From a virus, in the UHGV virus genome UHGV-0850785: 13,466 nucleotides of DNA; one strand, 5' to 3'. Of the stretch, positions 1-13,466 are shown piece after piece; position 1 is the first letter of the stretch; each line of letters starts with the position of its first letter. Under the pieces are notes generated by a model. That model did no database searches. It was not told the origin of the DNA and saw only the letters and a list, made by a program, of their open reading frames with translations. A program made the position numbers and the translations under genes.

Positions 1-36
1 AAAATCCCCTTAGTTTTTAAGTGGGTTTTTGTATGA
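1..36 (+). CDS. 3' end (last 11 codons) of an upstream gene cut by the window edge; function unknown, by Mu gene order possibly the DNA-circulation/tail protein
   Basis: Frame 1 is open from position 1 to TGA at 34-36; this stop overlaps ATG 33-35 of the next gene (ATGA), the same coupling pattern seen elsewhere in this operon. Far too short to identify. Confidence 0.25.
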   Translation, partial: KIPLVFKWVFV

Positions 37-929
37 ATAGGAAAAAACTAAGGGTAACGATCACCCTGAACGGAAAAAACCAAAACGGTGAGCAAAAAGT
101 ATTCGAGAGCGAATACAATCAACTGTCATCGTCAGGGCTTCGGGTTTCTTGTACCATTGTTTCGGGCAATGGAAGTTTATCGCCTACTGCTAAAATTCAG
201 GTCTATGGATTGTCGCTAACTAAAATGCTTGCGCTTTTCCGTGTGCAGTGGAATACGCTAGATGCAATGCTAAATGAAGTTGCAATCGAAGCGGGCGAAG
301 AAGGCAAGCCGTTTGAGTTGATTTATAAGGGCAATATCACAACCGCAACAATTAATATGGAGTCCGCACCCGACCCATTTTTAGACATTGATAGCGTTGT
401 CGGATTGGTTGAGCAAATGAAGCCTGCTGAGCCTTTAGCTGTCATTAACGATGTTGACGTTGCGGAAGTGGTTAGAATTATCACTGTGGACAGGATGGGC
501 TATGAGTTCGAGAACAATGGCGTATCTCAAATTATCCCTGATGGTTTCATGTCTGAGGGTGCGAACCTAGAAACAATCCGACAGTTAGCGCATGATTATG
601 ATTTCGATTTATATATTGAGCATAAATTGATTGCCATCGCCCCACGAAACACTAAGCGCGAAATCACCATCCCTCAGATAACACCAAAAGGAGGTCTTGA
701 GGGCTACCCTACCCCCGATATTAAGGGTATATCGTTTAAATGCTTTTATACTCCCCTAGTTCGCTTCGGTGGAAACTTGGAAGTAAAAGATAGTATCATT
801 GAAGTCTGCAATGGTATATGGCGCGTCTACGGCTTGAAAACCATTCTTGAAAGTGGCGTTCCAAATGGGCGCTGGTCTATGGAAGTAAATGCAACTTGGG
901 CGAATAGTACCGATGCCGTTAGAAAATGA
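33..929 (+). CDS. probable baseplate hub protein (Mu gp44 / P2 gpD position)
   Basis: About 298 aa ORF immediately upstream of the gpV-W-J-I block. Function is inferred mainly from synteny, not a recognised motif. In-frame TAA at 18-20 bounds the ORF; the track start is GTG 21, but ATG 33 forms an ATGA overlap with the upstream frame, so I prefer 33. Confidence 0.55.
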   Translation: MNRKKLRVTITLNGKNQNGEQKVFESEYNQLSSSGLRVSCTIVSGNGSLSPTAKIQVYGLSLTKMLALFRVQWNTLDAMLNEVAIEAGEEGKPFELIYKGNITTATINMESAPDPFLDIDSVVGLVEQMKPAEPLAVINDVDVAEVVRIITVDRMGYEFENNGVSQIIPDGFMSEGANLETIRQLAHDYDFDLYIEHKLIAIAPRNTKREITIPQITPKGGLEGYPTPDIKGISFKCFYTPLVRFGGNLEVKDSIIEVCNGIWRVYGLKTILESGVPNGRWSMEVNATWANSTDAVRK

Positions 930-1554
930 TCAACAGACAACGAATTATAGAGCATCCCAGAGCGTTGGCGGTGCTGCTGAATTTGAAGCCATTGTGCGCT
1001 CACTGATGGGTAAGAATCACACCTTAATGTTGGGTGAGGTGATGGCTATCACTCAAGAAGCAAGCAGCACTGATGCGGTGGGCTATCTTTCCGTCCGTCC
1101 AATGGTTTTCATGATTGATGGTTCAAACAATAACTATGAACGTGCCACGATTACTAACGTGCCTTTCTTTCGATTGCAGGCGGGCGGTAATGCAGTCATT
1201 CTAAATCCAAAAGTGGGCGATATTGGTTTGATTGCTTATTGTGAACGTGACATTTCGATGGTGAAGCGCAGCAAGCAGCAAGCAGCGCCAAACTCTCGCA
1301 GGCAGTTTAATATCAATGATGCGGTGTACTTGGGCGGTATGCTGAACGGTGCGCCTACTCAATACATTCAGTTTCTTGACAGTGGCATGAACATTAAGAC
1401 GACTGGCGATGTAAACATTAACGGCTTAACGATTGCACCGAGTGGCATTTTAACGCTTGCAAATGGCGTTGTAGTCGATACGCATATTCACGACCAAGCA
1501 AACGACAGTGACGGAAACACAGAGCAACCAGTGGGGACACCAAGAAATGGCTAA
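889..1554 (+). CDS. baseplate assembly protein V / central spike (Mu gp45, P2 gpV family)
   Basis: 221 aa with an OB-fold-like motif (PKVGDIGLIAY) and a C-terminal His-x-His (THIH, 1483-1491) typical of spike apex metal sites. Sits between hub and W/J genes. Start is ambiguous: ATG 889 has a GGAAG only 3 nt upstream, and ATG 913 is an alternative. The gene overlaps the upstream stop by 41 or 17 nt. Confidence 0.7.
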   Translation: MQLGRIVPMPLENDQQTTNYRASQSVGGAAEFEAIVRSLMGKNHTLMLGEVMAITQEASSTDAVGYLSVRPMVFMIDGSNNNYERATITNVPFFRLQAGGNAVILNPKVGDIGLIAYCERDISMVKRSKQQAAPNSRRQFNINDAVYLGGMLNGAPTQYIQFLDSGMNIKTTGDVNINGLTIAPSGILTLANGVVVDTHIHDQANDSDGNTEQPVGTPRNG

Positions 1555-1903
1555 CACTCTTTTTTTACTTCCCGATACTTGGGACTTAACATTAGATTCA
1601 AGCGGAAATATTGCTATCGCTAGTGATGTTTATCAGCAAGCACAAGACATTGCTTCTGCTTGCCGTGTGTTTCGAGGTGACATGTATTTCGATAGTGCGG
1701 AAGGTATCCCCTACTCCGAGTCGATTCTAGGCAAATCGTCTTATCCACTCGGTCTATATCAGGCAGAATTACGCAAAGCAGCCCTATCGGTTGATGGCGT
1801 GGTTAGTGCTAATATAACATTCAATAAAATTGAAAATCGGGTGCTAAGCGGCATGATTAAATTTACAAATGATCAAGATCAGACAGGAGTTGTGAGCTTA
1901 TGA
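1547..1903 (+). CDS. small baseplate protein (gpW/gp25-like or Mu gp46-like)
   Basis: About 118 aa ORF between V and J. ATG 1547 overlaps the V stop (TAA 1552-1554) and the stop overlaps the J start (ATGA at 1900-1903). The track's GTG 1508 is a possible alternative start. Family assignment is by size and position only. Confidence 0.55.
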   Translation: MANTLFLLPDTWDLTLDSSGNIAIASDVYQQAQDIASACRVFRGDMYFDSAEGIPYSESILGKSSYPLGLYQAELRKAALSVDGVVSANITFNKIENRVLSGMIKFTNDQDQTGVVSL

Positions 1904-3090
1904 TTCCTGATATTGAAATCACAGAAAATGGGATTATTGCACCCACAACAGATGAAGTTCTCGCAGGGGTTTGGGAGGTTTTAAAGACCGCATTCGGTTC
2001 AAGTTTAAATACTGCAATGAATACCCCGCAAGGGCAGTTAGCAACATCAATTACAGCGATTATTCAGAATGAGCGAAACAATTGGATTCAATTAATGAAT
2101 CAGATTGACCCGCAGTATTCTACAGGAATTTGGCAAGATGCCATCGGTGAGCTGTACTTTATCACTCGCCAATCTCAAACGTATTCAATTGCTCAAATTC
2201 GATTGTACGGCTTGAATGGCACGGTAGTTCCGTCAGGCTATAAAATCAGTGACACGGCAGGGAATATTTGGGAAACGACAACACGGTTAATTATTGACAC
2301 GACTGGTTATATTGATGGTTATGTTCAGTGTACCGTTGCAGGGGCAATCAATGCAGCCATTGGCACAATTACAAGCATCATTGTGGCGCTCTCAGGTTTA
2401 GACCGTGCAACAAATACAAGCGCAGCCGTTGCAGGTGTCAATGCTGAAAGCACGGATAACTTCGAGCAGCGCAGACAAGAGTCGGTAGCAGTAAATGCAA
2501 AACTAACCGATGCTGCGGTACGTGGCGCTGTGGCAAATTTATCAAACGTGGTCGATGTTTGGGTGAAATCAAATCCAACCGATGCTACTGTCAATTTTGG
2601 CGTGACTAATTACCCAGTGACACGGAATACTTTGCTTTGTTCTGTCGTTGGCGGTGATGATGAAGATATTGCGTGGCAGATTTTAGTAAAAGCGGGAACT
2701 GGTTGCTCGTTCGCAGGGAATACGGAAGTCACTGTTTATGACAATGACACCTACACAGTAGACCCGCCTGATTATAAAGTGAAGTTTTTGCGTCCGACAT
2801 TAAAAACGGTTAAGTTTAAAATCACGCTTGAAAATAAAAACGAAATGTCACTGCAAGATGAAAAGGCAATGAAAACCGCCATTCTTAGTGCGCTAGAAAC
2901 AGGAAAAACGCGCGCTCGCATCGGTCAAAAGCTTAGGGCTTCGGCTTATGTTTACCCAGTTAGCAGTGCATCGGATTTAAGCTTGATTAGTGTTGAGGTA
3001 AGCTTCGATGGCACAACGTGGGCTAATTATTTAGAGTTGGGCGTTGATGAATACCCAGTAACTACTGAATTCGATATTGAGGTCGCATAA
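1900..3090 (+). CDS. baseplate J-like protein (Mu gp47 / P2 gpJ family)
   Basis: 396 aa, the size and operon position of baseplate wedge J proteins. ATGA overlap with the upstream gene and TAATG overlap with the downstream gene. Confidence 0.75.
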   Translation: MIPDIEITENGIIAPTTDEVLAGVWEVLKTAFGSSLNTAMNTPQGQLATSITAIIQNERNNWIQLMNQIDPQYSTGIWQDAIGELYFITRQSQTYSIAQIRLYGLNGTVVPSGYKISDTAGNIWETTTRLIIDTTGYIDGYVQCTVAGAINAAIGTITSIIVALSGLDRATNTSAAVAGVNAESTDNFEQRRQESVAVNAKLTDAAVRGAVANLSNVVDVWVKSNPTDATVNFGVTNYPVTRNTLLCSVVGGDDEDIAWQILVKAGTGCSFAGNTEVTVYDNDTYTVDPPDYKVKFLRPTLKTVKFKITLENKNEMSLQDEKAMKTAILSALETGKTRARIGQKLRASAYVYPVSSASDLSLISVEVSFDGTTWANYLELGVDEYPVTTEFDIEVA

Positions 3091-3728
3091 TGTTTGAAGT
3101 TAAAGATACGTTGATGTCGCAGTATGCAAATAGCCCTGCAATTGTCGGGATTATTGATGGAATAGCCGATGCACTAGACCCTAATGCCACCGTGGATGAA
3201 TTTTATTCATTGCTATGGAATCTAAGCACCGCAAAGACATGGGGCTTAGATATTTGGGGACGCATTGTTGGCATGAGTCGAAACGTGCAAATGAGCGACC
3301 CCGATGCCGTAACATTCGGTTTTAAAACTAACCCTGTGTCGCAAAACTTCACACCCTTTAATGTCGCACCGTTCAGCGCAAGCGGTGCAAAATTCAACAG
3401 TTATCGACTGCCTGATAACCTCTATAAAGAGCTAATCATTATCAAGGCAGCTTCAAATATTCTCTATGCAACTGCGCCCAATATTAATAAGTATCTTCAA
3501 ATGATTTTCAGTGAAAAGGCTTACTACTACATCACGGGTCACATGACAGCAGCTTATATATTTGAATTTGAATTAACCGCATTTCAGCGTTTAATTGTCT
3601 ATACTTTGAAGTTATTACCTGAGCCGTGCGGTGTGTTAATCTCTTATGAAGAAAGAGCAGTTTCGGAGATATTTGGATTCGATGGCACAGAATATGAAAC
3701 ATTTGATAACGGAGTATTTGTTCGATGA
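3090..3728 (+). CDS. tail protein I-like baseplate protein (Mu gp48 / P2 gpI position)
   Basis: 212 aa ORF directly after J and before the fiber. Coupled by TAATG (3088-3092) and ATGA (3725-3728) overlaps. Confidence 0.6.
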   Translation: MFEVKDTLMSQYANSPAIVGIIDGIADALDPNATVDEFYSLLWNLSTAKTWGLDIWGRIVGMSRNVQMSDPDAVTFGFKTNPVSQNFTPFNVAPFSASGAKFNSYRLPDNLYKELIIIKAASNILYATAPNINKYLQMIFSEKAYYYITGHMTAAYIFEFELTAFQRLIVYTLKLLPEPCGVLISYEERAVSEIFGFDGTEYETFDNGVFVR

Positions 3729-4441
3729 GCAATCCTGATGTTATGTGGGCAAAAGCATTTGCGTGGAATGCTACAAACAGAAATACGATTCAAGATGAGC
3801 GGCAATCGTCACAAGATGCACAAGATGCCACGCTCAATGAAGGCTTTCCGCTTATCACAATGACCGCCAAAAATGCAGGAGGTATCGCTCCGAACGGTCA
3901 AGATATGAACGGTGCGCTTTATGCGATTAGTTCAGACATGGTTCATCGCCAAAAAGGTCTACGAATCCAATTTGATTCTGCCTATGCGACAAAAATCGGA
4001 GGTTATGATCAAGGCTGTATTCTTGCGTCTAACGACTACACACGTGATTACATTAGCCTTATCCCGAACAATTTAACCGATCCAAACGGTAGCGGGACTG
4101 CGGGACGTTGGGCTATATATTCAGGCGCTGGCTCTATTGCTTCTGCAACTGCGAGCATTGCGGGCATTGTTAAGATTGTTGATAGTTTGTCGAGTACCGC
4201 AACGGATGCAGCATTAACTGCTAATCAAGGTAGAATTCTGAGTGGTCTCACACAGCCAGCTACCACTACAAATGTTGGTATTACTCGATTTGCAACTGCG
4301 ACAGAGGTGGCGAATAAGTCAACTACACAAGCAGCAATTACAGCAGCAAACGCCGCAACAGTAGCGCAAAGCACAGACCTTGGTAAACAGTTCCGCCGCA
4401 TTTTTAACCACTTCCTGATTGCTGGATCGGGATACTGCTGA
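3725..4441 (+). CDS. tail fiber protein, N-terminal (baseplate-attachment) region only; 3' end runs into the junction
   Basis: Follows the gpI-like gene, as the fiber does in Mu/P2. Contains the conserved fiber N-terminal motif pattern (GIVKIVDSLSSTATDAALTANQG ... GITRFATATEVANKSTTQAAIT). At 238 aa it is far shorter than typical fibers. The last ~20 codons (after ~4380) read as antisense of the convergent gene, and no fiber chaperone gene follows. Confidence 0.65.
   Translation: MSNPDVMWAKAFAWNATNRNTIQDERQSSQDAQDATLNEGFPLITMTAKNAGGIAPNGQDMNGALYAISSDMVHRQKGLRIQFDSAYATKIGGYDQGCILASNDYTRDYISLIPNNLTDPNGSGTAGRWAIYSGAGSIASATASIAGIVKIVDSLSSTATDAALTANQGRILSGLTQPATTTNVGITRFATATEVANKSTTQAAITAANAATVAQSTDLGKQFRRIFNHFLIAGSGYC
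4319..4441. other. breakpoint zone between the myovirus baseplate module and the podovirus structural module (best estimate ~4380)
   Basis: Convergent ORFs 3725..4441 (+) and 4319..6139 (-) overlap by 123 nt. Each ORF's terminal ~20 codons are the antisense reading of the other's protein-like sequence. Composition and strand polarity switch here. Confidence 0.5.
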
Positions 4442-6139
4442 AAGCTGCGTGATGACCTGCGAAGGCATTATGCCAGTCTGAGCCACAAGCCGAACAACCC
4501 CATCATGAGTGGAGGCATCATTAATACGAAAGTTCTGCGCCATTTCTGTGTAATCAGCAGCTTTCTGCATTGACTTGTTGCTTGGGTCTAATTTTTCACC
4601 TATTGTCAGCGCCTCATTGAATCTGCGTGAATCCCGTTGCGCCTGAATTGCTTCATTTGATCTCTGAAGCAATGCAGACAATTTTCCGTAAGCATCGAGT
4701 TTTAACGCATAGTGAGGATCGTTAACCTCAGGCTTCACTTTCTGCATTTCTTCTTGCTGCTGAGAAGGAGGCAAATACTGAATTGCCTGGAATATTCTCG
4801 CGTTATCAATCGCTATATCCAGTTGATTGATTATTTTATCTGCGTTTTTTCCATACCCCCTGATGATGGTCTCCTGAGCCGGTATATAATCTGGAACCTC
4901 ACCGTTATATAGCTGGGCCATGGTGTTATTAATAGCTGGCTCAAGCTGTTCTAATATTAACTTCCTTTGCTTTTCTATCTGACTATTAGCAAGGTTATCT
5001 ATTTGATAAATAGTCAGCGGATCCATTCCAGTTTTATTTTTTCTATATCGGGAAAGCCACCCTTGTGTTTCTGATGGAAGATTTCGGATAAATTCTTCTT
5101 CTGATATTTCACCTTTACGTGGATCACCGACTTTGGCGATCAGTTTATCCACGTTACCCATCCCCCAGTTATATGCTGCTCCGGTCAATATTTCGGAACC
5201 GTACTTACCATACAGTTGATTTACATAGTCACTGGCGAGCATTTCATGCTGTTGTTCGTCCGTAGGGTTGTATTCAACGCCACGCTTGGCCGCCAGTTCT
5301 TTTCCTGTGCCCGGCATTAACTGGTATTTCCCCTGGGCTCTCTCTCCAGAAGATGTTATCGGTCCCTCAAGAAGACTACCATCAGGATTAAAATGTCGAT
5401 CACCTGATTCAACAAGGCGTATGGCAAGCATGTCCATGCCTCCAGAATCATTTTTCTGAAACAGACCATTTAGCCATCCTTCTGGATTGGCAGCGGCATA
5501 ATTCTTCGCCCGCATTTCTGTGGCACTGCGATCATCACTTTCTATTTCTTCCAGAATGCGTTCTTGTGACCATCCCCTGGCAGCTCCATATCTGGCAATG
5601 GCTACCATTCTGGAATTTCTGGCTAAAGTGGCAGTTTGCGGGTCATTCCAGGCATCCGCTTCATTTTGTATCCATAATTTTCTCGTTGCCTGATATTGCT
5701 CATCTTCATAGGCATTTGTCTGCCCTATCTCATGTCTGAGAACTCCAGTACTGAACTGAATTTTCTGTGTTCTGGCTTGTTGCAAAAACATATTTCTTGC
5801 TGCTTCATCAGTCAATGAAGCAGCTATTTCTTCCACATCCTGATCAAATCCAGATATGTACTCTTGCCCCTTACCAATCGCATTTTTGCCTTGTTGTGCA
5901 TAAAAACCGGTTTGAGGGTTATAAAGACGTTCATTGCTGCGCTGATTAAGCTGAAGGATGGCATCCTGAGACAATGCAACATTCGCTTTCTGCCTGGCTT
6001 CACCATATGCCACCGCATACTGATCTGCGACATTCGCCAGCACCTGACCTGCTTGAGGAACATCGAAGGTCTGAAAACCACCGGTTTGCACACCACGACT
6101 TTGCACCTGGCGTCCGGATGTAGTAGGAACAACAGGCAT
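4319..6139 (-). CDS. internal virion protein with lytic transglycosylase (SLT) domain (T7 gp16-type ejection protein); C-terminal ~19 residues probably not native
   Basis: 606 aa. Residues ~240-330 carry the classic SLT signature (LVESGDRHFNP ... GKYQLMPGTG ... AAYNWGMGNV), with the putative catalytic Glu at residue 244 (coords ~5408-5410). Strong RBS GGAGG 6 nt upstream (6146-6150); ATG overlaps the stop of the upstream gene (ATGA). The terminal Cys-rich tail (VCALRYCCGVCCCNCCLCS, 4319-4378) is the antisense of GCA/GCT-rich fiber codons. Confidence 0.8.
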   Translation of the reverse strand: MPVVPTTSGRQVQSRGVQTGGFQTFDVPQAGQVLANVADQYAVAYGEARQKANVALSQDAILQLNQRSNERLYNPQTGFYAQQGKNAIGKGQEYISGFDQDVEEIAASLTDEAARNMFLQQARTQKIQFSTGVLRHEIGQTNAYEDEQYQATRKLWIQNEADAWNDPQTATLARNSRMVAIARYGAARGWSQERILEEIESDDRSATEMRAKNYAAANPEGWLNGLFQKNDSGGMDMLAIRLVESGDRHFNPDGSLLEGPITSSGERAQGKYQLMPGTGKELAAKRGVEYNPTDEQQHEMLASDYVNQLYGKYGSEILTGAAYNWGMGNVDKLIAKVGDPRKGEISEEEFIRNLPSETQGWLSRYRKNKTGMDPLTIYQIDNLANSQIEKQRKLILEQLEPAINNTMAQLYNGEVPDYIPAQETIIRGYGKNADKIINQLDIAIDNARIFQAIQYLPPSQQQEEMQKVKPEVNDPHYALKLDAYGKLSALLQRSNEAIQAQRDSRRFNEALTIGEKLDPSNKSMQKAADYTEMAQNFRINDASTHDGVVRLVAQTGIMPSQVITQLSAVSRSSNQEVVKNAAELFTKVCALRYCCGVCCCNCCLCS

Positions 6140-6714
6140 CAGTAACCTCCTATTTTGAATCGGGAGTCAGAATTCATAAAACCTGAGTTAGATAACATTG
6201 GCGTCCCACCACTAGATGTACTTCCTTTAGAGAACGGACTCCACGTCCCACCAAACATCTGGTACGCACCGTATGCCTTCAGAGGCGCAGTGAGCAATGT
6301 TGTTGCTGCTCCCACATTCCCCTGTTTACGGGCTGAACTGGCTTCTGCTTTATAGTTGGCAGCCTGAACCTGATAACCGTAAGCCTCGCGTTGCGCGTTA
6401 TTCACCGTCGTCAGCGAATCAAGAGCGCCAAACTGGGCAGTGTCGCCAAATATATCCAGCGCGTTACCTGTAGATAAATCAGCGCCGGTAGCCCCCATTG
6501 TCGCCGCCTGTGTACCAAGCCGCTGTCGGGTCTCTCTGCGCCGTTGCTCAGCTTCAGCGTTACCTCTGTTTATTGCATCATTTGCCTGAGCTGTGGCTAT
6601 ATCTGCGTTCGCTTCTGCAACCTTCGAGGCATACTTTCCCTGTTGGTACTGGGTGTATGCCTGAATGCCACTCATGGCGAGCATTGCGCCACCAGCAATA
6701 ACCGGATCGCACAT
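6139..6714 (-). CDS. putative internal virion protein (T7 gp14 position); Gly/Ala/Gln/Thr-rich
   Basis: 191 aa with a hydrophobic N-terminal segment (PVIAGGAMLAMSGIQAY) followed by a low-complexity region. GGAGA RBS 7 nt upstream; TAATG overlap with the upstream gene and ATGA overlap with the SLT gene. Function is from position only. Confidence 0.55.
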   Translation of the reverse strand: MCDPVIAGGAMLAMSGIQAYTQYQQGKYASKVAEANADIATAQANDAINRGNAEAEQRRRETRQRLGTQAATMGATGADLSTGNALDIFGDTAQFGALDSLTTVNNAQREAYGYQVQAANYKAEASSARKQGNVGAATTLLTAPLKAYGAYQMFGGTWSPFSKGSTSSGGTPMLSNSGFMNSDSRFKIGGY

Positions 6715-7178
6715 TATTTTCTCTCCATGTGAAATCTGTGGAAATTAAGACCAAGAGCACCATAAGGCGCGGCTTCTTCAAGCCTGAATCCAAGCCAGTG
6801 CAGCCATGCTTTGGCAACATGGTTTCGCTCGTCGACGTAGTTTTCCAGGCGCGGATAAACTGCCAGCATCTGCTGCAATACCGGGCGGCAGTGGCGCAGA
6901 AATGTCTTCTGATATTTTTCAATACGGCTGGTCCCGACCAGCCAGGGCGTACCATTGCCACCGATCATTGACGCCGGAGATACACCAAACATGGTTACCA
7001 GTTCTCTGTTCGCGAACCCTGACCAGGCCATAGTCGCAGTGCGCAGACCAACACGCAGCGCATCTTCGGTAGTCATCAGCGATACCGCATACAGTTCGTC
7101 AATATCAGCCTGACGAACATCCGGCAAAATCATCTGAAGATGCTCTTCGGTTGCGGGAATAATTTGAACATCGATCAT
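6714..7178 (-). CDS. hypothetical virion protein (T7 gp13 position)
   Basis: 154 aa ORF. ATGA overlap with the tail tubular B stop (7176-7180); GGGGGA 5 nt upstream. No motif I can name with confidence. Confidence 0.5.
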   Translation of the reverse strand: MIDVQIIPATEEHLQMILPDVRQADIDELYAVSLMTTEDALRVGLRTATMAWSGFANRELVTMFGVSPASMIGGNGTPWLVGTSRIEKYQKTFLRHCRPVLQQMLAVYPRLENYVDERNHVAKAWLHWLGFRLEEAAPYGALGLNFHRFHMERK

Positions 7179-9649
7179 CAGAATCCCCCAACAGTAAGGC
7201 GAGGAATAACGGCAAGAACAGACAGCGGCAACGGGTCAAGCTGACGGATTTTTACACGTCCGTTTTTGCCCCAGTTACTGTCCAGCTTCACTTCTACTTT
7301 TCCGGTAGCATCATCAACAGGATCATCGTAGAACTCGAATTCACGCTGTGGATATTCGTACCATTTACCGCCGGGCGTAGTCGCCCAGATGCCGCGACTG
7401 GCATTCACAACCAGAGTAACGGACGGGATCACCTGTTTTTTGTCCAGCAGCGTTTCCTGTCCGTTAATGTTGATATCCAACGTTTCGAATTCAGCAGTTA
7501 TTGGCAGGCCGATGTGCACAACAGCCCCCGGTGATTCCAGCGTGACGGCACCTCCGGAAACTACTTTCTGTGGTTCCACGTTCGCATCAGAGAGGATGTT
7601 TACGGTCTGACCTTCAAGATGAGACAAGCCTCCAAATGTCCGGAGCGCCATCTGCCAGTTCGTGGTGGCCACATTCCTGAGGGATGGCGGGACGTTCCTG
7701 TTAGCACGAACCACTACAGCGGTATTGCTGGTTACAGAAATAATGTCGCAACGTAATTCTTTTGACACTTCATCGCCAGTATCAGGATCAGTTCCGGTAT
7801 AAGGGAACTGTAGTTGCGCACCGACATCACTACTGGTGAAGTACGCACCACCAGAAACACTGATTGTATATTCCGCACGGTAATCCCATTCACCAGAACC
7901 ACCAGTGATGGTCATCGTTCTGTCAGACGTATTTCTTCCATCATAGCTAAGGCCAGAATCAACAAAGAAAGCATCTTCATCGCTGGTAAATAAACGGCTG
8001 GACAGTCTCTCGATGTATCTCACTGTTTGCCCGTTAACGGTTCGGTTAACGACGAAATACACCGCATCTTCATTGCCTTCGCTGATACTGCATGTGCTTT
8101 CATATTTTCCGGTACTGGATTGTGGTGCCCATGCAAAAACCTGCTGATCACGCAAATAGGTCATCACCAGTAATTTACCGTCATCACGAATGCAGAAGGC
8201 GCTGGAGTAAGGGACAATAGAGAAGCACCAGTCAACAATGCTGTGCTTCTGAAAAAGATGATTGGCAAGGATGGTCAGGTCGTTCCCCTGATAGCCGTCA
8301 ACATCGAATGAATAGGCCAGATCACGGACAACACTGCCTTTCTCCTGGACGAACAGAGCAATATTCGCCACGGCAATTGGTGGGACGTTGCTTGAGCCAT
8401 TTGATCCCTGAGAGCTGAATGCAAATGATGATGGGGTTAACACTTTGTTCTGGTCGCCGGTGATGACGTACTCACCTCCGGAAGTCAGCGCCACCAGCGA
8501 ACCAACATCAATCAGGTGGCGGATCTCATTAACCTGACGCCCGGCATAGGTGTAGATAATTCTGTCGTCATCCTGCGTAGGATTGCTTTTGCCAAAATCC
8601 TTATAATCCCCAGTACGGCTGGCCCAGATAGTCTGAGGGAACGCTGTCGATGCGGCGAAGTAAAGACGTTGTTGATAATAAACAACAGTGCCAGGATAAC
8701 CGTTAACACTATTCCAGGCATATTTAGCCCATTTATAGCTGGCATTATCCTCGCCAACTACCTGCGAAGGGATATAGGAAATCACCTCAGCAGTTGCAGT
8801 AGTTCCATTTGCAGCAGAGATACGGGCAATGCCAAAACCACTGTGCAGATACTCCCACTCAATGCCAGTATCATCATCACCGGATCCGCCCCAGCCATCC
8901 CATGATGTTCCTTCTGTATGCGAAGGGCGCAAAGTGCCTGTTTTGCCTGCTGTAACGGCGCGATAGTAGTTACTGTCTGCACGGCGAATATCGCCAATCG
9001 ATGTACTCTTACTTGTTTCCCATACCGGCACTGAATCCACTGCAGGCTGTTCCAGATAGAACAATTTGCCTACCTGCTCCGCGCCAAAAATAGAGGCGCT
9101 TGCCGTTAACGTAATTGTCCCGGTGCTGGCGCTGGCATAAACCGTCACTGACTCGTCAATATTGATATCTTCAAATGGACCGTTCTTCGTTACCACATCA
9201 ACCAGTTGCCAGTTGTCATGAGCATATCGGCGCAACTCTTTCGGCGGGTATGCAGGGTGAACCAGCGTAAGCACGTCGGCGCTTTGCGTGAATTTAATTC
9301 GGAACAGATCGGCTTCAGTATATGGCGTGGCAATTTCATAAATAACATTGCTGCTGTTCAGCACCAACGCACCATCTTTGATAACGCGCATGTACTGGTG
9401 TCCGAACTCCAGAGCATAAGTCTGAACCGTCGAGAACTGGAACGGGATCAGGCGGCATTTCCGATTTGGGTATTTGGCGGCACCGACAAAACGCGTACCA
9501 GGTCGATTCTCAACTCCGCCATACTGCCGCACGATAAAGTTATCGCACTTGCGCAATGCCACCTGGTACTTCGCCATGTCGATACGACCGTACAACGACG
9601 GTCCAATTTCACCACCGGCAAAGCTGGGCTGGATCCAACTGATAGCCAT
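7178..9649 (-). CDS. tail tubular protein B / nozzle (T7 gp12 family)
   Basis: 823 aa. N-terminus MAISWIQPSFAGGEIGPSLYGRIDMAKYQ ... ENRPGTRF matches the pattern I associate with gp12-like nozzle proteins. Size and position directly after a gp11-like gene fit; ATGA overlap at 9647-9651. Confidence 0.75.
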   Translation of the reverse strand: MAISWIQPSFAGGEIGPSLYGRIDMAKYQVALRKCDNFIVRQYGGVENRPGTRFVGAAKYPNRKCRLIPFQFSTVQTYALEFGHQYMRVIKDGALVLNSSNVIYEIATPYTEADLFRIKFTQSADVLTLVHPAYPPKELRRYAHDNWQLVDVVTKNGPFEDINIDESVTVYASASTGTITLTASASIFGAEQVGKLFYLEQPAVDSVPVWETSKSTSIGDIRRADSNYYRAVTAGKTGTLRPSHTEGTSWDGWGGSGDDDTGIEWEYLHSGFGIARISAANGTTATAEVISYIPSQVVGEDNASYKWAKYAWNSVNGYPGTVVYYQQRLYFAASTAFPQTIWASRTGDYKDFGKSNPTQDDDRIIYTYAGRQVNEIRHLIDVGSLVALTSGGEYVITGDQNKVLTPSSFAFSSQGSNGSSNVPPIAVANIALFVQEKGSVVRDLAYSFDVDGYQGNDLTILANHLFQKHSIVDWCFSIVPYSSAFCIRDDGKLLVMTYLRDQQVFAWAPQSSTGKYESTCSISEGNEDAVYFVVNRTVNGQTVRYIERLSSRLFTSDEDAFFVDSGLSYDGRNTSDRTMTITGGSGEWDYRAEYTISVSGGAYFTSSDVGAQLQFPYTGTDPDTGDEVSKELRCDIISVTSNTAVVVRANRNVPPSLRNVATTNWQMALRTFGGLSHLEGQTVNILSDANVEPQKVVSGGAVTLESPGAVVHIGLPITAEFETLDININGQETLLDKKQVIPSVTLVVNASRGIWATTPGGKWYEYPQREFEFYDDPVDDATGKVEVKLDSNWGKNGRVKIRQLDPLPLSVLAVIPRLTVGGF

Positions 9650-10254
9650 CAGGACAACCTCGCAATGGTAAACTCGTCAACCGGTGGCAGTGGTTCCTGT
9701 GATTCATTCTGGCTATGCGAGCCAGCACTAAGAATCACGCGATTGTACATATTGAGGGCAAACGTACCGAGGTCTGCATTCCCAGTCAGCGCCATGTTAA
9801 TAGCTGCCGCAAGACGCCAGGCCAACGCCTCCATAAAAATGGCATCAAACATGTTCACATCTGAAACGCGAGAGACATACTTGAGCCATGCCTGCGGCTG
9901 GTCTGTGTAGATCAACTTTCCTGTTCCGTTGGTGTCTGCACCAACTTCGTACTGAACGCGCATTGCTGCTGTTGGATTGCGTACACCAGGAAGCATAATT
10001 TCAGTAATGCGCAGACAATCTGACGGGTACTGATACGCATATTCCCAGTCAGGCGGTGGATTGCTCGTATCTGCAAGCGCCACGCGTTTGGTAGCAAAGT
10101 TCCAGTCAAAATCAGAAAGCACAGCATCACGGCAGGCCTCAAAGTGCAGCGAACATTCCCCCGCTTCCTTGCTGGCTTCCGTCAGGCTGTTAATGCTGCG
10201 GCTATTGCCAATATTGGACAGCGCACGATTGCAGATCTCTACTACAGAGGCCAT
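9649..10254 (-). CDS. tail tubular protein A / adaptor (T7 gp11 family)
   Basis: 201 aa, similar in size to T7 gp11 (~196 aa), immediately upstream of the gp12-like gene. TAATG overlap with the upstream gene at 10252-10256. Confidence 0.7.
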   Translation of the reverse strand: MASVVEICNRALSNIGNSRSINSLTEASKEAGECSLHFEACRDAVLSDFDWNFATKRVALADTSNPPPDWEYAYQYPSDCLRITEIMLPGVRNPTAAMRVQYEVGADTNGTGKLIYTDQPQAWLKYVSRVSDVNMFDAIFMEALAWRLAAAINMALTGNADLGTFALNMYNRVILSAGSHSQNESQEPLPPVDEFTIARLS

Positions 10255-10577
10255 TACTCACCCCCATTGCCGTACAGGGTTTCAGCCGCTGATTTTTCTA
10301 CATCCCCGGAAACAGGAGCGATCGCCATATCAGTGATCTGCAGATCGGCGCTGCGATTAACCCCATCGTCAGTTTCTCTGGCAGACAGGCCTCGAATAAC
10401 AGCCTTTGCAGTTATCATCACTTCTGTTCCGACGCCCTGAGGTTGCGCCTTCAGCTTATTCAATGTGTCGTTATTAAGAGTGATGCACAGCCCCCACGGG
10501 TATTCATCGCGAGTTCTGGTTTCTCCGCTCTCATCCTGGTAGCTGTCAGTGCCGGTTTTGAGGTTTACGAGTTCCAT
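10254..10577 (-). CDS. hypothetical small structural protein (~107 aa)
   Basis: ORF directly upstream of and overlapping the gp11-like gene. The track start GTG 10583 lies inside the AGGAG RBS (10583-10587); ATG at 10575-10577 has 5-nt spacing, so I prefer it. Confidence 0.5.
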   Translation of the reverse strand: MELVNLKTGTDSYQDESGETRTRDEYPWGLCITLNNDTLNKLKAQPQGVGTEVMITAKAVIRGLSARETDDGVNRSADLQITDMAIAPVSGDVEKSAAETLYGNGGE

Positions 10578-10594
10578 ATACACTCCTGCAATAA

Positions 10595-10610
10595 AGGGGC
10601 CGAAGCCCCT
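10595..10610 (-). terminator. intrinsic-terminator-like hairpin (6-bp G/C-rich stem, UUCG tetraloop) followed by UUUAUU
   Basis: Minus-strand sequence AGGGGC-TTCG-GCCCCT then TTATTG, in the 44-nt gap between the 111-aa and 107-aa genes. The downstream RBS follows immediately, suggesting an attenuator rather than a full stop. Confidence 0.5.
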
Positions 10611-10627
10611 TGTCTGATCCGCGAGGC

Positions 10628-10963
10628 TTACACGCCCAGTTCTTTACGCTTATCTGCGATCTTCTCGCGGAGCGTTTCGGCTTTGGCGTTATGGTGTGGC
10701 TTCTCGTTAAAGAGCAATTCGTACTCTTCACGGAGCTTATCCAGTTCACCATCATCTGACACATCGTTGATGATTTTGGTGCTGGTTGCTGCCATTGACA
10801 CCTTTCCTGCAATTTTTGCTTTTGCCTGTCTGGCTGCATCGTTAACAGGTTCCAGTGCGCTACCAGGCTCACCTTCGTATTCGATTTCTGCCCCCTCCGG
10901 CCACAGAGTGTTATGGATATGAGAGAGGCGCAGAACGCGGTATCTTGGTTTCTCACCTGACAT
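10628..10963 (-). CDS. hypothetical small head-associated protein (~111 aa), highly charged C-terminal helix
   Basis: ORF between the 145-aa gene and the hairpin. The track start GTG 10972 lies within the RBS AAGGTGA; ATG 10961-10963 has 5-nt spacing. C-terminus is Lys/Glu-rich (DKLREEYELLFNEK ... REKIADKRKELGV). Confidence 0.5.
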   Translation of the reverse strand: MSGEKPRYRVLRLSHIHNTLWPEGAEIEYEGEPGSALEPVNDAARQAKAKIAGKVSMAATSTKIINDVSDDGELDKLREEYELLFNEKPHHNAKAETLREKIADKRKELGV

Positions 10964-10973
10964 CGATATCACC

Positions 10974-11411
10974 TTAACCAGTTACTTTTGAGCGGATCGG
11001 ATACGGCGTATTGGCATCAACATCAAGACTGATACCAGCAGTGAATTCGCCAGCCGTTAGTGGGCCAGTTGCGACGGAGTAGTTAACACGCAGATATCGC
11101 TGAACACCGGCAGGCACCTTTGCAGAAACAACTCGTTTACCTGCTGTCAGGGCGGTCTTTGCCAGTGCGCCACTATCATAAATAGTGGTCCATGAGCTGT
11201 TATTCTCACTCGTCTGCAACTGGATGTTTACAGTTGCATCACCGCTTGCCGCGGCGGCTGTGTTAACCAGCGCCCAAAACTCAAGCGGGTAACCCACGCC
11301 GATATCACGACGTTTTCCGTCAATTGGACCGAGATCGATTACGTCAGTAGAAGCCGCGGTATTCGTAACCGCCTGAGCTTCGGAGAACATCAACAGTTTG
11401 TCGGTGATCAT
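10974..11411 (-). CDS. hypothetical protein, possible capsid decoration/accessory protein (145 aa)
   Basis: First gene after the major capsid gene, with a GGAG RBS 7 nt upstream. Thr/Ala/Ser/Val-rich composition suggests a beta-rich fold. Function is from position only. Confidence 0.5.
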   Translation of the reverse strand: MITDKLLMFSEAQAVTNTAASTDVIDLGPIDGKRRDIGVGYPLEFWALVNTAAAASGDATVNIQLQTSENNSSWTTIYDSGALAKTALTAGKRVVSAKVPAGVQRYLRVNYSVATGPLTAGEFTAGISLDVDANTPYPIRSKVTG

Positions 11412-11462
11412 CTTCTTTCTCCATTAGTGGGTCTGTTACGACCAACAGGTTAATAACAGGCG

Positions 11463-12455
11463 TTACACCACGCGGGCTTCTGTTTCCAGAAGCGCATCAG
11501 TTTCACGGATTGGTACACCACGGAATGAAGTCCACCACTCGCCTTCAGTCTCTTTTACGCTGATAGCCAGAGATGTTTTCTCCAGAGATTGCAGATCAAG
11601 AGCCTGGCCTACAGTGCGGTTCATGTAGAACACCGGGCGACCCATGCCACGGTTTGGAATGCGATGCAGTGCTTTAACCATCAACTTCGCAATATTTGCG
11701 GCAGAGGAAGGTTCTGAAAGATTGCTGACATCGATGTTTGCAATGCGAACAACATAACGCCAGTCACGCAGAGCAAGTCCGTTGTCCCATTTGTAATGGG
11801 TACGGTAGCCTTCGTACTTGCCGCCATTAACATCTTCCAGTGTCACCTGGCCTTTATCTTCCATCTGGATTCCAGCCTTCTGCCCTTTCGGGAAGATGCC
11901 ATGCACGGTGTTTTCGCCCCACACCACTAACCAGATTGAGGTGTTATCTGTACCCGTGCCACCAGCATCAATGATGTTCTGAGCATTACCCGCAGACAGG
12001 CTGGAATAGCGGGAGGACAGTCCCATAAACTGCTGAGGGTTAACGCTGGAATCACCATAAAACAACGTCTGCGCCATCTGCTGATTCATCGCTTCAATAA
12101 ATGCGCGGTCTTCAGACAGGCGGAATTCGGCGGTATTACCGTTCAGATCAGCCAGTGACTTATCGACTTCAGCATAGGTTTCCAGCATTCCAACGGAATC
12201 GGTGACCTGCACTGTGGTTGATTTGCTTGGCTGTACGCCATAGTTCAGCAAACGCCAGGTGGCTGAAGGTAAACCAGAACGAATGGTGGTTCGGTGTCCG
12301 GTAGGAAGGTTCCCTTCGACAAAAGGCATATCCTGAAGGATCGGGTTAGTTTGACCGAGAAGCTCGATAATCTTATCGACTTTCCCGTTTGGATCGACGC
12401 GCTTACCCCAGTCAGCCAGCGTTAGCGCAGTTAAGCCTTTAACAGCCATTGTCAT
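11463..12455 (-). CDS. major capsid protein
   Basis: 330 aa, directly downstream of the scaffold gene. The N-terminal region (LADWGKRVDPNG ... ILQDMPFVEGNLPTGH ... AFIEAMNQQMAQTLFYG) resembles podovirus major capsid proteins I recall. The second ATG (12447-12449) has better RBS spacing (GAGAGGA 8 nt upstream), so the true start may be 12449. Confidence 0.8.
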   Translation of the reverse strand: MTMAVKGLTALTLADWGKRVDPNGKVDKIIELLGQTNPILQDMPFVEGNLPTGHRTTIRSGLPSATWRLLNYGVQPSKSTTVQVTDSVGMLETYAEVDKSLADLNGNTAEFRLSEDRAFIEAMNQQMAQTLFYGDSSVNPQQFMGLSSRYSSLSAGNAQNIIDAGGTGTDNTSIWLVVWGENTVHGIFPKGQKAGIQMEDKGQVTLEDVNGGKYEGYRTHYKWDNGLALRDWRYVVRIANIDVSNLSEPSSAANIAKLMVKALHRIPNRGMGRPVFYMNRTVGQALDLQSLEKTSLAISVKETEGEWWTSFRGVPIRETDALLETEARVV

Positions 12456-12463
12456 TTCCTCTC

Positions 12464-13159
12464 TTATTTGCCATAGAGCACTTCGGCCGCACTACGCTGG
12501 CCTTCATTACCACCGGTGACCATGCCATCTTCAGACATCGCCTTTCCGATTTTCACGAACGTTTTGACCAGATCAGGGTGATTACCCAGCCCGGTGGTGT
12601 TCAGATATTCTTTGAGCTCAGGTGTCCCGAACTGGTCAAGCGCACGCTGTGCGGCGCTAAGGTTAGAAATCAACTTGTCGCCACCGATTTCTTTGTCAGC
12701 TTTTACATCCGCAGCCCACTGCTCGGTTGTTTTCTGCCAGGCTTCTGCCTGGCGCTGCTGAACACCTGCCAGAATCTTCGGATAAGCATCAACCAGCTTT
12801 TGCGCTTGCTCGTTGGTCAGGTTTAGTTCTCGAGCCACCGGCTCGAACTCCTTCAACGCTTCTGTATCCAGCTCTACGCCTTCGGCAGCCTGAAACTCGT
12901 ACTTCTCAGGCGCACCCTCTGGTTTATCGCCGTCCTTTTTTTCATCCTGCTTATCGTTTTCAGACTTTTTGTCATCAGCAGGTTTATCGCCATCAGCAAC
13001 AGGTTGTGGCTTATCACCTTCCTGTTGTGATGGATCACCAACTGGAGCAGGGTTATCACCTGCAGGCGCTGACGGTTCTGACGCAGCCGGAGCTGCTCCA
13101 CCATCGACTGGTTGCTCATTGCAAAGACGGCGATACAGCAAACGCTCAAATAAATTCAT
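12464..13159 (-). CDS. scaffolding protein
   Basis: ~231 aa immediately upstream of the capsid gene. Acidic Pro/Asp/Lys-rich low-complexity N-terminal half with GDKP repeats, then a helical region. The track start GTG 13165 sits in the AGGAG RBS; ATG 13157-13159 has 5-nt spacing. Confidence 0.7.
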   Translation of the reverse strand: MNLFERLLYRRLCNEQPVDGGAAPAASEPSAPAGDNPAPVGDPSQQEGDKPQPVADGDKPADDKKSENDKQDEKKDGDKPEGAPEKYEFQAAEGVELDTEALKEFEPVARELNLTNEQAQKLVDAYPKILAGVQQRQAEAWQKTTEQWAADVKADKEIGGDKLISNLSAAQRALDQFGTPELKEYLNTTGLGNHPDLVKTFVKIGKAMSEDGMVTGGNEGQRSAAEVLYGK

Positions 13160-13161
13160 GA

Positions 13162-13458
13162 TCACTCCTGTTCACTGGCCTCTTTGGCCATCTTCAAATA
13201 CTGTTCAGGGCAATGCGCCATAACGCGCTGAAACAGTTCCAGCGCCAGATTGCGTTGCCCCTCATTAAATGCCATTGCCATAGCGTCCATCGGTGAGATA
13301 GCGGAAAACACACGGCCTTTCTCCAGCACCGACCAGACAACGCGACGCCCCTGTTCACTGCTCATGACAAAGCGAATGTCATCAATTTCACGCTGCGCCA
13401 TGTCACGTTGCTTACGGGCGTTTTCTTCTTTCAGTTGATCGTCTTCGTAATCTGTCAT
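13162..13458 (-). CDS. hypothetical small acidic protein (98 aa) between the presumed portal gene and the scaffold gene
   Basis: ORF whose stop (TGA 13162-13164) lies in the scaffold RBS/spacer. Its ATG (13456-13458) overlaps a TGA (13455-13457) that would end a minus-strand gene entering from the right edge (ATGA). No recognisable motif. Confidence 0.5.
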   Translation of the reverse strand: MTDYEDDQLKEENARKQRDMAQREIDDIRFVMSSEQGRRVVWSVLEKGRVFSAISPMDAMAMAFNEGQRNLALELFQRVMAHCPEQYLKMAKEASEQE

Positions 13459-13466
13459 TGTGATTG

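What the first reader, a model, noticed from the sequence alone, without database searches (positions are those of the whole stretch)
3725..6139. Both modules lose their receptor-binding end at the junction
In Mu/P2-type operons the fiber gene is followed by its C-terminal receptor-binding region and a fiber-assembly chaperone. In T7-type operons the internal virion proteins are followed by the tail fiber or tailspike gene. Here the myovirus fiber stops after its conserved N-terminal anchor, and the podovirus module stops within or just after its last internal virion protein. Neither module encodes a host-recognition domain in this window. That fits a deletion spanning the 3' ends of two prophages, or a hotspot at host-range cassettes.
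Basis: inference. Interest (0 to 1): 0.5.

Follow-up and report, generated by a model that had tools for sequence, protein, structure and literature searches.

The report
Chimeric contig joining two unrelated phages
Two phage genes really are cut short here, but most likely because DNA from two unrelated phages in a human gut metagenome was joined artificially during amplification, library preparation or assembly, so it tells us nothing about host-range evolution.

Summary
A myovirus tail-fibre gene (3725→) and a podovirus SLT internal-virion-protein gene (←6139) are both truncated. They meet tail-to-tail at one point, base 4384.

The proposed cause, a deletion between two prophages or a host-range hotspot, is not supported.
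- The left arm (1-4384) matches contig CYGL01000279.1 with one mismatch. That contig is an Acinetobacter-phage-like myovirus.
- The right arm matches CYGL01000890.1 of the same assembly with one mismatch. It is 99.98% identical to an Escherichia coli Uetakevirus prophage.
- A published paper describes this assembly, 'HumMal', as human gut metagenomic sequence.
- In both contigs the genes run on intact past the breakpoint. The fibre is 308 aa and is followed by a 944-aa tailspike. The SLT gene (902-905 aa in relatives; split in CYGL01000890.1 by a one-base homopolymer deletion) is followed by a gp16-like gene.
- The two native sequences share only one base at the join. No repeat flanks it.
- The junction 42-mer is absent from three public collections.
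- None of 5,426 complete E. coli genomes holds the left arm. In 44 of 45 that hold the right arm, the gene is uninterrupted across the site.
- The 18- and 21-residue ORF tails are antisense read-through.

Verdict: most likely a chimeric contig with no biological meaning. Interest is low.

The parts
1..4384 (+). Left arm: part of the baseplate and fibre module of an Acinetobacter-phage-like myovirus, GC 0.438.
   Evidence: 4383 of 4384 bases match CYGL01000279.1 positions 256-4639. Gene order matches Acinetobacter phage Acjo_20. Baseplate J is 65.8% identical at protein level to Acjo_20. GC.
21..929 (+). Baseplate hub protein. The gene caller's ATG start is at 33.
   Evidence: Pfam E217_GP41 at 1.5e-10 and phrog_196 'baseplate hub' at 4.7e-50. 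Called as 298 aa in the native contig.
889..1554 (+). Probable central spike protein.
   Evidence: Pfam PF18352 N-terminal domain at 3.2e-06. A gene of the same 221-aa length sits at this position in Acjo_20.
1547..1903 (+). Baseplate wedge / sheath-initiator (gp25-like) protein.
   Evidence: phrog_120 at 3.9e-29. Pfam Sheath_initiator on the identical 118-aa gene of the native contig.
1900..3090 (+). Baseplate J-like wedge protein.
   Evidence: Pfam Baseplate_J at 1.9e-14 and phrog_6 at 3.3e-59. The exact protein is on CYGL01000279.1 and on a Logan contig from run ERR975268.
3090..3728 (+). DUF2612 / Phage_Wedge1 baseplate protein.
   Evidence: Pfam PF11041 at 5.5e-42. The exact protein is on CYGL01000279.1.
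3725..4384 (+). Tail fibre 1, native residues 1-220 of 308: N-terminal anchor and shaft, without the C-terminal domain.
   Evidence: Identical to the native gene up to G220. phrog_1396 and phrog_12796 'tail fiber'. C-terminal-domain families phrog_14531 (residues 212-299) and phrog_26525 (191-307) hit only the native protein.
4384..4384 (.). Junction: the one base (T) shared by the two native sequences, where the arms are joined tail-to-tail.
   Evidence: Base-by-base comparison with both native contigs.
4385..4441 (+). Read-through tail of the fibre ORF: 18 codons plus a stop, read from the antisense strand of the SLT gene.
   Evidence: This DNA matches the E. coli prophage SLT gene on the opposite strand.
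4319..4383 (-). Read-through tail of the SLT ORF: 21 Cys-rich codons plus a stop, read from the antisense strand of the fibre gene.
   Evidence: This DNA matches CYGL01000279.1 fibre sequence on the opposite strand.
4384..6139 (-). SLT-domain internal virion (ejection) protein, native residues 1-585 of 902-905.
   Evidence: Pfam SLT at 2e-07. phrog_1044 positions 1-612 of 900. The native full-length protein covers 1-900 of 900. Identical to CYGL01000890.1.
6139..6714 (-). T7 gp14-family internal virion protein.
   Evidence: Pfam T7_gp14 at 4.4e-08 and phrog_418 at 1e-72.
6714..7178 (-). Internal virion protein.
   Evidence: phrog_308 at 8.9e-62.
7178..9649 (-). Tail protein, 823 aa.
   Evidence: phrog_376 'tail protein' at E = 0. 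The exact protein is on CYGL01000890.1 and on contig AASIJY010000045.1.
9649..10254 (-). Tail protein, 201 aa (tail tubular type).
   Evidence: phrog_394 at 4e-86 and phrog_9239 'tail tubular protein'.
10254..13458 (-). Uetakevirus head genes: Gp10-like (10254-10577), a 111-aa protein (10628-10963), Bbp16 cement protein (10974-11411), major capsid protein (11463-12449), protease/scaffold (12464-13159) and Bbp19-like (13162-13458).
   Evidence: PHROG matches. Pfam labels on the near-identical locus L003. TL-2011b annotation.

Best explanation
The window is most likely a chimeric contig. Bases 1-4384 come from an Acinetobacter-phage-like myovirus. Bases 4384-13466 come from an E. coli Uetakevirus (epsilon15/phiV10/TL-2011b type). 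Both phages were present in one human gut metagenome sample.

The two pieces were joined end-to-end at an arbitrary point inside two genes by a non-biological event. The likeliest event is a chimeric molecule or read made during whole-genome amplification or library ligation, which the assembler then followed. Each truncated gene reads on into the antisense strand of the other arm until a chance stop codon. That produces the two overlapping convergent ORFs of 238 and 606 aa.

The receptor-binding ends were never lost from either phage. They sit on the intact copies of both phages in the same data set.

Shown here: the origin of each arm, the intact native copies, the blunt junction, and the uniqueness of the junction. 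Inferred: the step at which the join arose.
For: - Left arm: 4383 of 4384 bases match CYGL01000279.1. Right arm: 7069 of 7070 bases match CYGL01000890.1 of the same assembly, GCA_001292545.1.
- Both contigs continue natively past the breakpoint. The fibre is 308 aa and is followed by a 944-aa tailspike-like fibre with a Peptidase_S74 chaperone domain, then a holin and an endolysin. The SLT gene continues and is followed by the gp16-like gene.
- A published paper describes that assembly ('HumMal, Ma_F259_Contig_N') as human gut metagenomic sequence. It also holds a complete Obolenskvirus genome.
- The arms point to different hosts. The 15 best baseplate J matches are all Acinetobacter phages. 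Left-arm GC is 0.438, against 0.507 for the right arm outside the SLT gene. The left arm has no match in 5,426 complete E. coli genomes, and the GTDB representative scan (close relatives only) found none. The right arm is 99.98% identical to contig AASIJY010000045.1 (organism not checked) and 98.4% to Escherichia phage TL-2011b.
- The natives share only 1 nt at the junction. The longest common substring within 150 nt either side is 8 nt, equal to the shuffled mean of 8.07. No repeats flank the join.
- The junction 42-mer is absent from genome contigs, viral contigs and metagenome contigs. Neither chimeric protein is on record.
- 44 of 45 E. coli genomes with this prophage type are uninterrupted across the site. 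Ten natural loci all have a protein of at least 837 aa at this position, followed by further large virion proteins.
- Signs of a genuine shotgun contig. The window's one difference from CYGL01000279.1 lies 22 nt from its left end. Its right end stops exactly before a C7 run. The sister contig carries a homopolymer indel.
Against: - No read-level data were available, so the join has not been shown to lack read support.
- The source record of the window was not found. The left-arm 50-mer occurs in the metagenome collection only in CYGL01000279.1. The sequencing and amplification method of the window's own assembly is therefore unknown.
- Both breaks lie near domain boundaries. The fibre breaks at residue 220, where its C-terminal domain begins. 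The SLT gene breaks at nt 1756, about 50-100 nt before a naturally variable segment. A random artefact does not predict this, although multi-domain proteins offer many such boundaries.
- Inter-molecular chimeras are, from my own recollection, the less common class of amplification chimera.
Confidence: 0.8

Rival explanations
1. A real illegitimate recombination or deletion. A bacterium carried both elements as neighbouring, convergently oriented prophages. A deletion removed everything between the middle of the fibre gene and the middle of the SLT gene, leaving a dead hybrid remnant.
For: Both genes are truncated and joined directly, as a deletion would leave them. A join with 0-1 nt of microhomology is compatible with illegitimate recombination. 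Both breaks fall near domain boundaries.
Against: - The arms belong to phages of different host groups, Acinetobacter-like against E. coli.
- No complete E. coli genome holds the left arm, and the GTDB representative scan found no close relative of it.
- Intact copies of both phages, each differing by one base, occur in the same metagenome assembly.
- The junction occurs nowhere else in the collections searched.
- There is no host DNA in the window.
Confidence: 0.07
2. A recombination hotspot at host-range cassettes. Fibre and tailspike regions exchange often, so both operons tend to break just upstream of their receptor-binding parts.
For: The fibre break is at the start of the C-terminal domain. 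The Uetakevirus ejection-protein and tailspike region is mosaic. phiV10-type phages share DNA with the window only from 6233 onwards, and SLT alleles diverge from about gene nt 1800.
Against: - 44 of 45 E. coli prophages are continuous across the exact site.
- The break in the SLT gene lies inside an ejection protein. It is separated from the tailspike by about 950 nt of SLT gene, a 3-kb gp16-like gene and about 6 kb of accessory genes.
- Nothing is exchanged at the join. It links two antisense gene fragments and no functional cassette.
- There is no invertase site, repeat or homology.
Confidence: 0.02
3. A purely in-silico join. Two contigs or contig fragments were concatenated without a spacer by scaffolding, by database processing, or when the window was prepared.
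For: Each arm matches a public contig almost perfectly and the join shares at most one base. The window as a whole is not in any searched collection.
Against: - The junction is not at the end of either public contig. It corresponds to position 4639 of 24,249 in one and 7070 of 8,770 in the other.
- The right arm extends 2,012 nt beyond the end of CYGL01000890.1.
- Each arm carries one private silent substitution.
- Together these point to an independent assembly, not a cut-and-paste of the deposited contigs.
Confidence: 0.1

Closest known systems
Chimeric contigs in amplified metagenome and virome assemblies (template-switch chimeras of multiple displacement amplification, ligation chimeras)
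   Same: Sequences from two different genomes of one sample are joined at an arbitrary point with at most one shared base and inside genes. The intact parental sequences are present in the same data.
   Different: From my own knowledge, not checked here: classical amplification chimeras mostly join inverted segments of the same molecule a few kb apart. Here the two partners are different phages. The amplification and sequencing method of the source was not verified.
Uetakevirus phages and prophages (Salmonella phage epsilon15, Escherichia phages phiV10 and TL-2011b)
   Same: Right arm 4384-13466 is 98.4% identical to TL-2011b and 99.98% identical to contig AASIJY010000045.1. The gene order is the same from the Bbp19-like gene to the SLT protein.
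   Different: The window lacks the last 317-320 residues of the SLT protein, the 1004-1007-aa gp16-like protein, the accessory region, the 697-aa tailspike, the O-acetyltransferase and the lysis genes that follow in TL-2011b.
Acinetobacter myophages (phage Acjo_20; genus Obolenskvirus)
   Same: Gene order matches: hub, spike, gp25-like, baseplate J, DUF2612, fibre 1, fibre 2. Baseplate J is 65.8% identical to Acjo_20 and 41-45% to Obolenskvirus-type Acinetobacter phages. Both phages have two fibres with a common N-terminal anchor.
   Different: DNA similarity is nearly nil: one 173-nt match at 75.6%. The left phage is a distinct, uncultured relative with an unverified host. In the window its fibre 1 is cut at residue 220 and fibre 2 is missing.
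Invertible fibre segments of Mu and P1 (Gin/Cin systems)
   Same: The break in the fibre lies at the junction between the constant N-terminal part and the variable C-terminal part. From my own knowledge, that is where those systems recombine.
   Different: There is no invertase gene, no inverted repeat and no alternative fibre C-terminus. The sequence beyond the break is the antisense of an unrelated podovirus ejection protein.

Membership tests
Chimeric contig (non-biological join) | The two sides derive from different genomes or organisms. | tested here: met
   The left arm resembles Acinetobacter myophages, is absent from 5,426 E. coli genomes, and found no close relative in the GTDB representative scan. 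The right arm is a 98-99.98% E. coli Uetakevirus.
Chimeric contig (non-biological join) | The unjoined parental sequences exist and continue through the breakpoint in the same data set. | tested here: met
   CYGL01000279.1 and CYGL01000890.1 of one assembly each differ from the window arm by one base and run on natively.
Chimeric contig (non-biological join) | The junction is unique and not reproduced in independent samples or genomes. | tested here: met
   The junction 42-mer is absent from three collections. The chimeric proteins are not on record.
Chimeric contig (non-biological join) | Few or no reads or read pairs span the junction, or coverage steps at the junction. | not testable with these tools
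   No read data are accessible. The window's own source record was not found.
Deletion between two adjacent prophages | Both prophages reside in one replicon of one host. | tested here: not met
   No genome searched holds both. The left arm has no hit in E. coli genomes, and the GTDB representative scan found no close relative of it. The source is a metagenome.
Deletion between two adjacent prophages | Host DNA or att sites flank the remnant. | tested here: inconclusive
   The 13.5-kb window holds only phage structural genes on both sides. Its flanks are unknown.
Host-range cassette hotspot | Independent breakpoints recur at the same site in relatives. | tested here: not met
   44 of 45 E. coli prophages are continuous for 500 nt either side of the SLT break. 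Ten natural loci all have a full-length gene. The fibre side could not be surveyed for lack of close relatives.
Host-range cassette hotspot | The exchange yields an alternative functional receptor-binding module. | tested here: not met
   Beyond each break lies antisense DNA of the other phage, giving 18- and 21-residue nonsense tails.
Uetakevirus structural module (right arm) | Near-identical DNA and the same gene order as epsilon15/phiV10/TL-2011b-type phages. | tested here: met
   98.4% identity over 99% of the arm to TL-2011b, with matching gene order.
Obolenskvirus-like myovirus baseplate module (left arm) | Same gene order and protein homology across hub, baseplate J, DUF2612 and the fibres. 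| tested here: met
   Gene order matches Acjo_20. Baseplate J is 41-66% identical to Acinetobacter phage proteins. Genus membership by nucleotide identity is not met, since only one 173-nt DNA match was found.

The most novel reading that the evidence does not exclude
The junction is a real DNA molecule: a hybrid made by illegitimate recombination between an Acinetobacter-type myovirus and an E. coli Uetakevirus, or between their prophages in an unexpected common host. That would imply the two phage types meet in one cell and break near receptor-binding domain boundaries.
Probability: 0.05. Interest if true: 0.45.

Novelty: not a real feature. Interest (0 to 1): 0.06.

Why it matters
As biology it most likely does not matter. 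The 'loss' of host-recognition genes comes from a chimeric contig, and both phages keep their full fibre and tailspike sets on intact contigs of the same sample.

It matters as quality control. Gene callers will report two plausible ORFs here, a 238-aa 'tail fibre' and a 606-aa 'SLT protein' with a Cys-rich tail. Prophage or mosaicism analyses could then mistake the contig for an inter-family recombinant.

If read data showed the junction to be real, it would be an unusual case of DNA exchange between phages of different bacterial orders.

Tried and rejected
- Exact look-ups of the two chimeric proteins: not on record.
- Junction 42-mer in genome, viral and metagenome collections: no hit.
- A left-arm 50-mer: absent from viral contigs. 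In the metagenome collection it occurs only in CYGL01000279.1. The window's own source record therefore stayed unidentified.
- Search for close relatives of baseplate J in GTDB representative genomes: none confirmed. No bacterial host could be assigned from prophages.
- Megablast of the left arm against phages gave only a 173-nt match. Protein-level searches were needed.
- Exact look-up of the 107-aa Gp10-like protein, to trace the private substitution at 10362: uninformative. The change is synonymous and the protein occurs in about 30,000 blocks of the collection.
- Search for the original paper of the metagenome by DOI, by PMC id and by the word 'HumMal': not held. I recall that 'HumMal' is the Malawian twin gut virome made with multiple displacement amplification and pyrosequencing, but this is unverified.
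- A Mu/P1-type invertible fibre segment and an IS- or att-mediated junction were considered and rejected. No repeats, no invertase and no homology lie at the join.
- No structure prediction or large protein-database search was run. The identical native genes already answer the question.
Full report
**Anatomy of the window**

The window has two blocks of genes that converge. Genes on the + strand run from 21 to 4441. They encode a baseplate hub (E217_GP41, phrog_196), a spike-like protein, a gp25-like wedge protein, baseplate J, DUF2612/Wedge1 and a tail fibre. Genes on the - strand run from 13458 down to 4319. They encode a Bbp19-like protein, a protease/scaffold, the major capsid protein, Bbp16, a Gp10-like protein, two tail proteins, two internal virion proteins including a T7 gp14 homologue, and an SLT-domain protein. 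The fibre ORF (3725-4441, 238 aa) and the SLT ORF (6139-4319, 606 aa) overlap tail-to-tail by 123 nt.

**Where each arm comes from**

- The exact 212-aa DUF2612 and 396-aa baseplate J proteins are on record only on contig CYGL01000279.1 (24,249 bp) of assembly GCA_001292545.1; baseplate J is also on a short Logan contig of run ERR975268.
- Window 1-4384 equals positions 256-4639 of that contig, with one mismatch at window position 22.
- The exact 823-aa tail protein is on CYGL01000890.1 of the same assembly and on contig AASIJY010000045.1.
- Window 4384-11453 equals CYGL01000890.1 with one mismatch, at 10362. That change is synonymous and is private to the window among 11 natural sequences.
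- Window 4384-13466 differs at two positions from contig AASIJY010000045.1 and is 98.4% identical to Escherichia phage TL-2011b.

**The junction**

Identity to the left contig ends at 4384 and identity to the right contig begins at 4384. The two native sequences share only that T. Within 150 nt either side, the longest common substring of the two natives is 8 nt, the same as in shuffled sequence (mean 8.07). No direct or inverted repeat brackets the join.

- Fibre: residues 1-220 are native (…STDLG), followed by 18 residues translated from the antisense of the SLT gene.
- SLT protein: residues 1-585 are native (…AAELF), followed by 21 Cys-rich residues translated from the antisense of the fibre's Ala/Thr-rich shaft.

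**What normally follows each break**

*Left phage (CYGL01000279.1).*
- The fibre is 308 aa. Its last 88 residues form a C-terminal domain (phrog_14531, phrog_26525, phrog_18834).
- Next comes a 944-aa second fibre or tailspike (phrog_4636 'tail spike') with a Peptidase_S74 chaperone domain at residues 787-820.
- Then come a 93-aa protein, a holin and an M15 endolysin.
- The two fibres share an N-terminal anchor: 38% identity over residues 35-121, E = 2e-16.
- The closest isolated relative, Acinetobacter phage Acjo_20, has the same order, with fibres of 259 and 684 aa.

*Right phage.*
- The SLT protein is 902 aa in AASIJY010000045.1 and 905 aa in TL-2011b.
- It is followed by a 1004-1007-aa gp16-like internal virion protein (phrog_342).
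- In TL-2011b there follow about 6 kb of accessory genes (Arc, Ant, YafO, Bro-N), a 697-aa tailspike (phrog_1640, phrog_1171), an O-acetyltransferase and the lysis genes.

Two details need correcting. The SLT protein is not the last internal virion protein. The myovirus module resembles Acinetobacter myophages, not Mu or P2.

**Why this is not a prophage deletion or a hotspot**

1. The assembly that holds both parental contigs is called 'HumMal, Ma_F259_Contig_N'. A paper on Obolenskvirus phages describes it as human gut metagenomic sequence and found a complete Obolenskvirus genome in it (PMC10888812). The source is therefore a mixed community, not one genome.
2. The arms point to different hosts.
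   - The 15 best baseplate J matches are all Acinetobacter phages, and 85 of 159 phage records matching the fibre are Acinetobacter phages.
   - The left arm has GC 0.438 and its contig 0.413, close to Acjo_20 at 0.405.
   - The left arm has no match in 5,426 complete E. coli genomes, and a scan of 185,579 species representative genomes, which finds close relatives only, confirmed none.
   - The right arm is an E. coli prophage type found in 45 complete E. coli genomes.
3. Both parental sequences continue intact through the breakpoint in the same assembly.
4. The junction 42-mer is absent from the genome, viral and metagenome collections, and neither chimeric protein is on record.
5. In 44 of 45 E. 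coli genomes the sequence is uninterrupted for 500 nt either side of the SLT break. In ten further natural loci the gene at this position is 837-935 aa and is followed by large virion proteins.

**Best explanation**

The window is most likely a chimeric contig. The few differences from the deposited contigs suggest an independent assembly of the same phage populations, not a cut-and-paste of the public contigs:
- one substitution 22 nt from the window's left end;
- one private silent substitution at 10362;
- a right arm that extends 2,012 nt beyond CYGL01000890.1;
- a right end that stops exactly before a C7 homopolymer.

The sister contig carries a one-base homopolymer deletion that splits its SLT gene into 783 + 121 aa. 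That is the error type of pyrosequencing.

From my own knowledge, unverified here, 'HumMal' is the Malawian twin gut virome, which used multiple displacement amplification, a method known to create chimeric molecules. The papers that could confirm this were not held. A join with only one shared base fits a chimeric read from template switching or ligation. It does not fit a repeat-induced graph misassembly, which would leave a shared k-mer at the join.

**What speaks against this, and what is left open**

- No reads were available and the window's own record was not found, so lack of read support is inferred, not shown.
- Both breaks lie near domain boundaries. The fibre breaks at residue 220, where its C-terminal domain begins. 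The SLT gene breaks at nt 1756, about 50-100 nt upstream of a segment that varies among natural alleles. I regard this as coincidence, because these proteins have many boundaries and nothing functional is joined.
- A real illegitimate recombinant cannot be excluded. I put it at about 5-7%.

**Verdict**

The feature is most likely an artefact. Interest is low.

Noticed in passing
window 4384-6233; L003 13392-16100: The Uetakevirus ejection-protein region is a natural mosaic. phiV10-type phages share DNA with the window only from 6233 onwards. SLT-gene alleles of E. coli prophages diverge from about gene nt 1800 and strongly at 2280-2520. The gene after gp14 is 837-935 aa in ten natural loci. 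This part of the right arm also has lower GC, 0.448 against 0.507.
   Followed up: partly
L004 (CYGL01000890.1) about 7584: A one-base homopolymer deletion (A6 to A5) relative to contig L003 splits the SLT gene of that contig into 783 + 121 aa. This is probably a sequencing error of the pyrosequencing type.
   Followed up: yes
window 13466 (right end) and window 22: The window ends exactly before a C7 run present in the near-identical contig L003. Its only difference from CYGL01000279.1 lies 22 nt from its left end. Both suggest that the window is a complete shotgun contig.
   Followed up: partly
L002 3980-4906 and 4906-7740: The left phage encodes two consecutive fibres with a shared N-terminal anchor: 38% identity over residues 35-121, E = 2e-16. 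The second is 944 aa and carries a Peptidase_S74 intramolecular chaperone domain. Acinetobacter phage Acjo_20 has the same pair, 259 and 684 aa.
   Followed up: partly
L002 7833-8114: A 93-aa ORF after the second fibre matches only the extreme C-termini of long tail-protein families (phrog_16355 positions 749-799 of 799; phrog_27613 positions 632-699 of 779). It may be a fibre fragment or a small accessory tail protein.
   Followed up: no
L002 9350-11977: The left phage contig carries ERF and SSB recombination genes on the opposite strand, just after the lysis genes. No integrase was seen in the 14 kb read, so its lifestyle is unknown.
   Followed up: no
window 4319-4383 (- strand): The 21-residue read-through tail of the SLT ORF has 9 cysteines (…CALRYCCGVCCCNCCLCS). 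It is the antisense of GCA/GCT-rich fibre shaft codons. It could be mistaken for a metal-binding motif by automatic annotation.
   Followed up: yes
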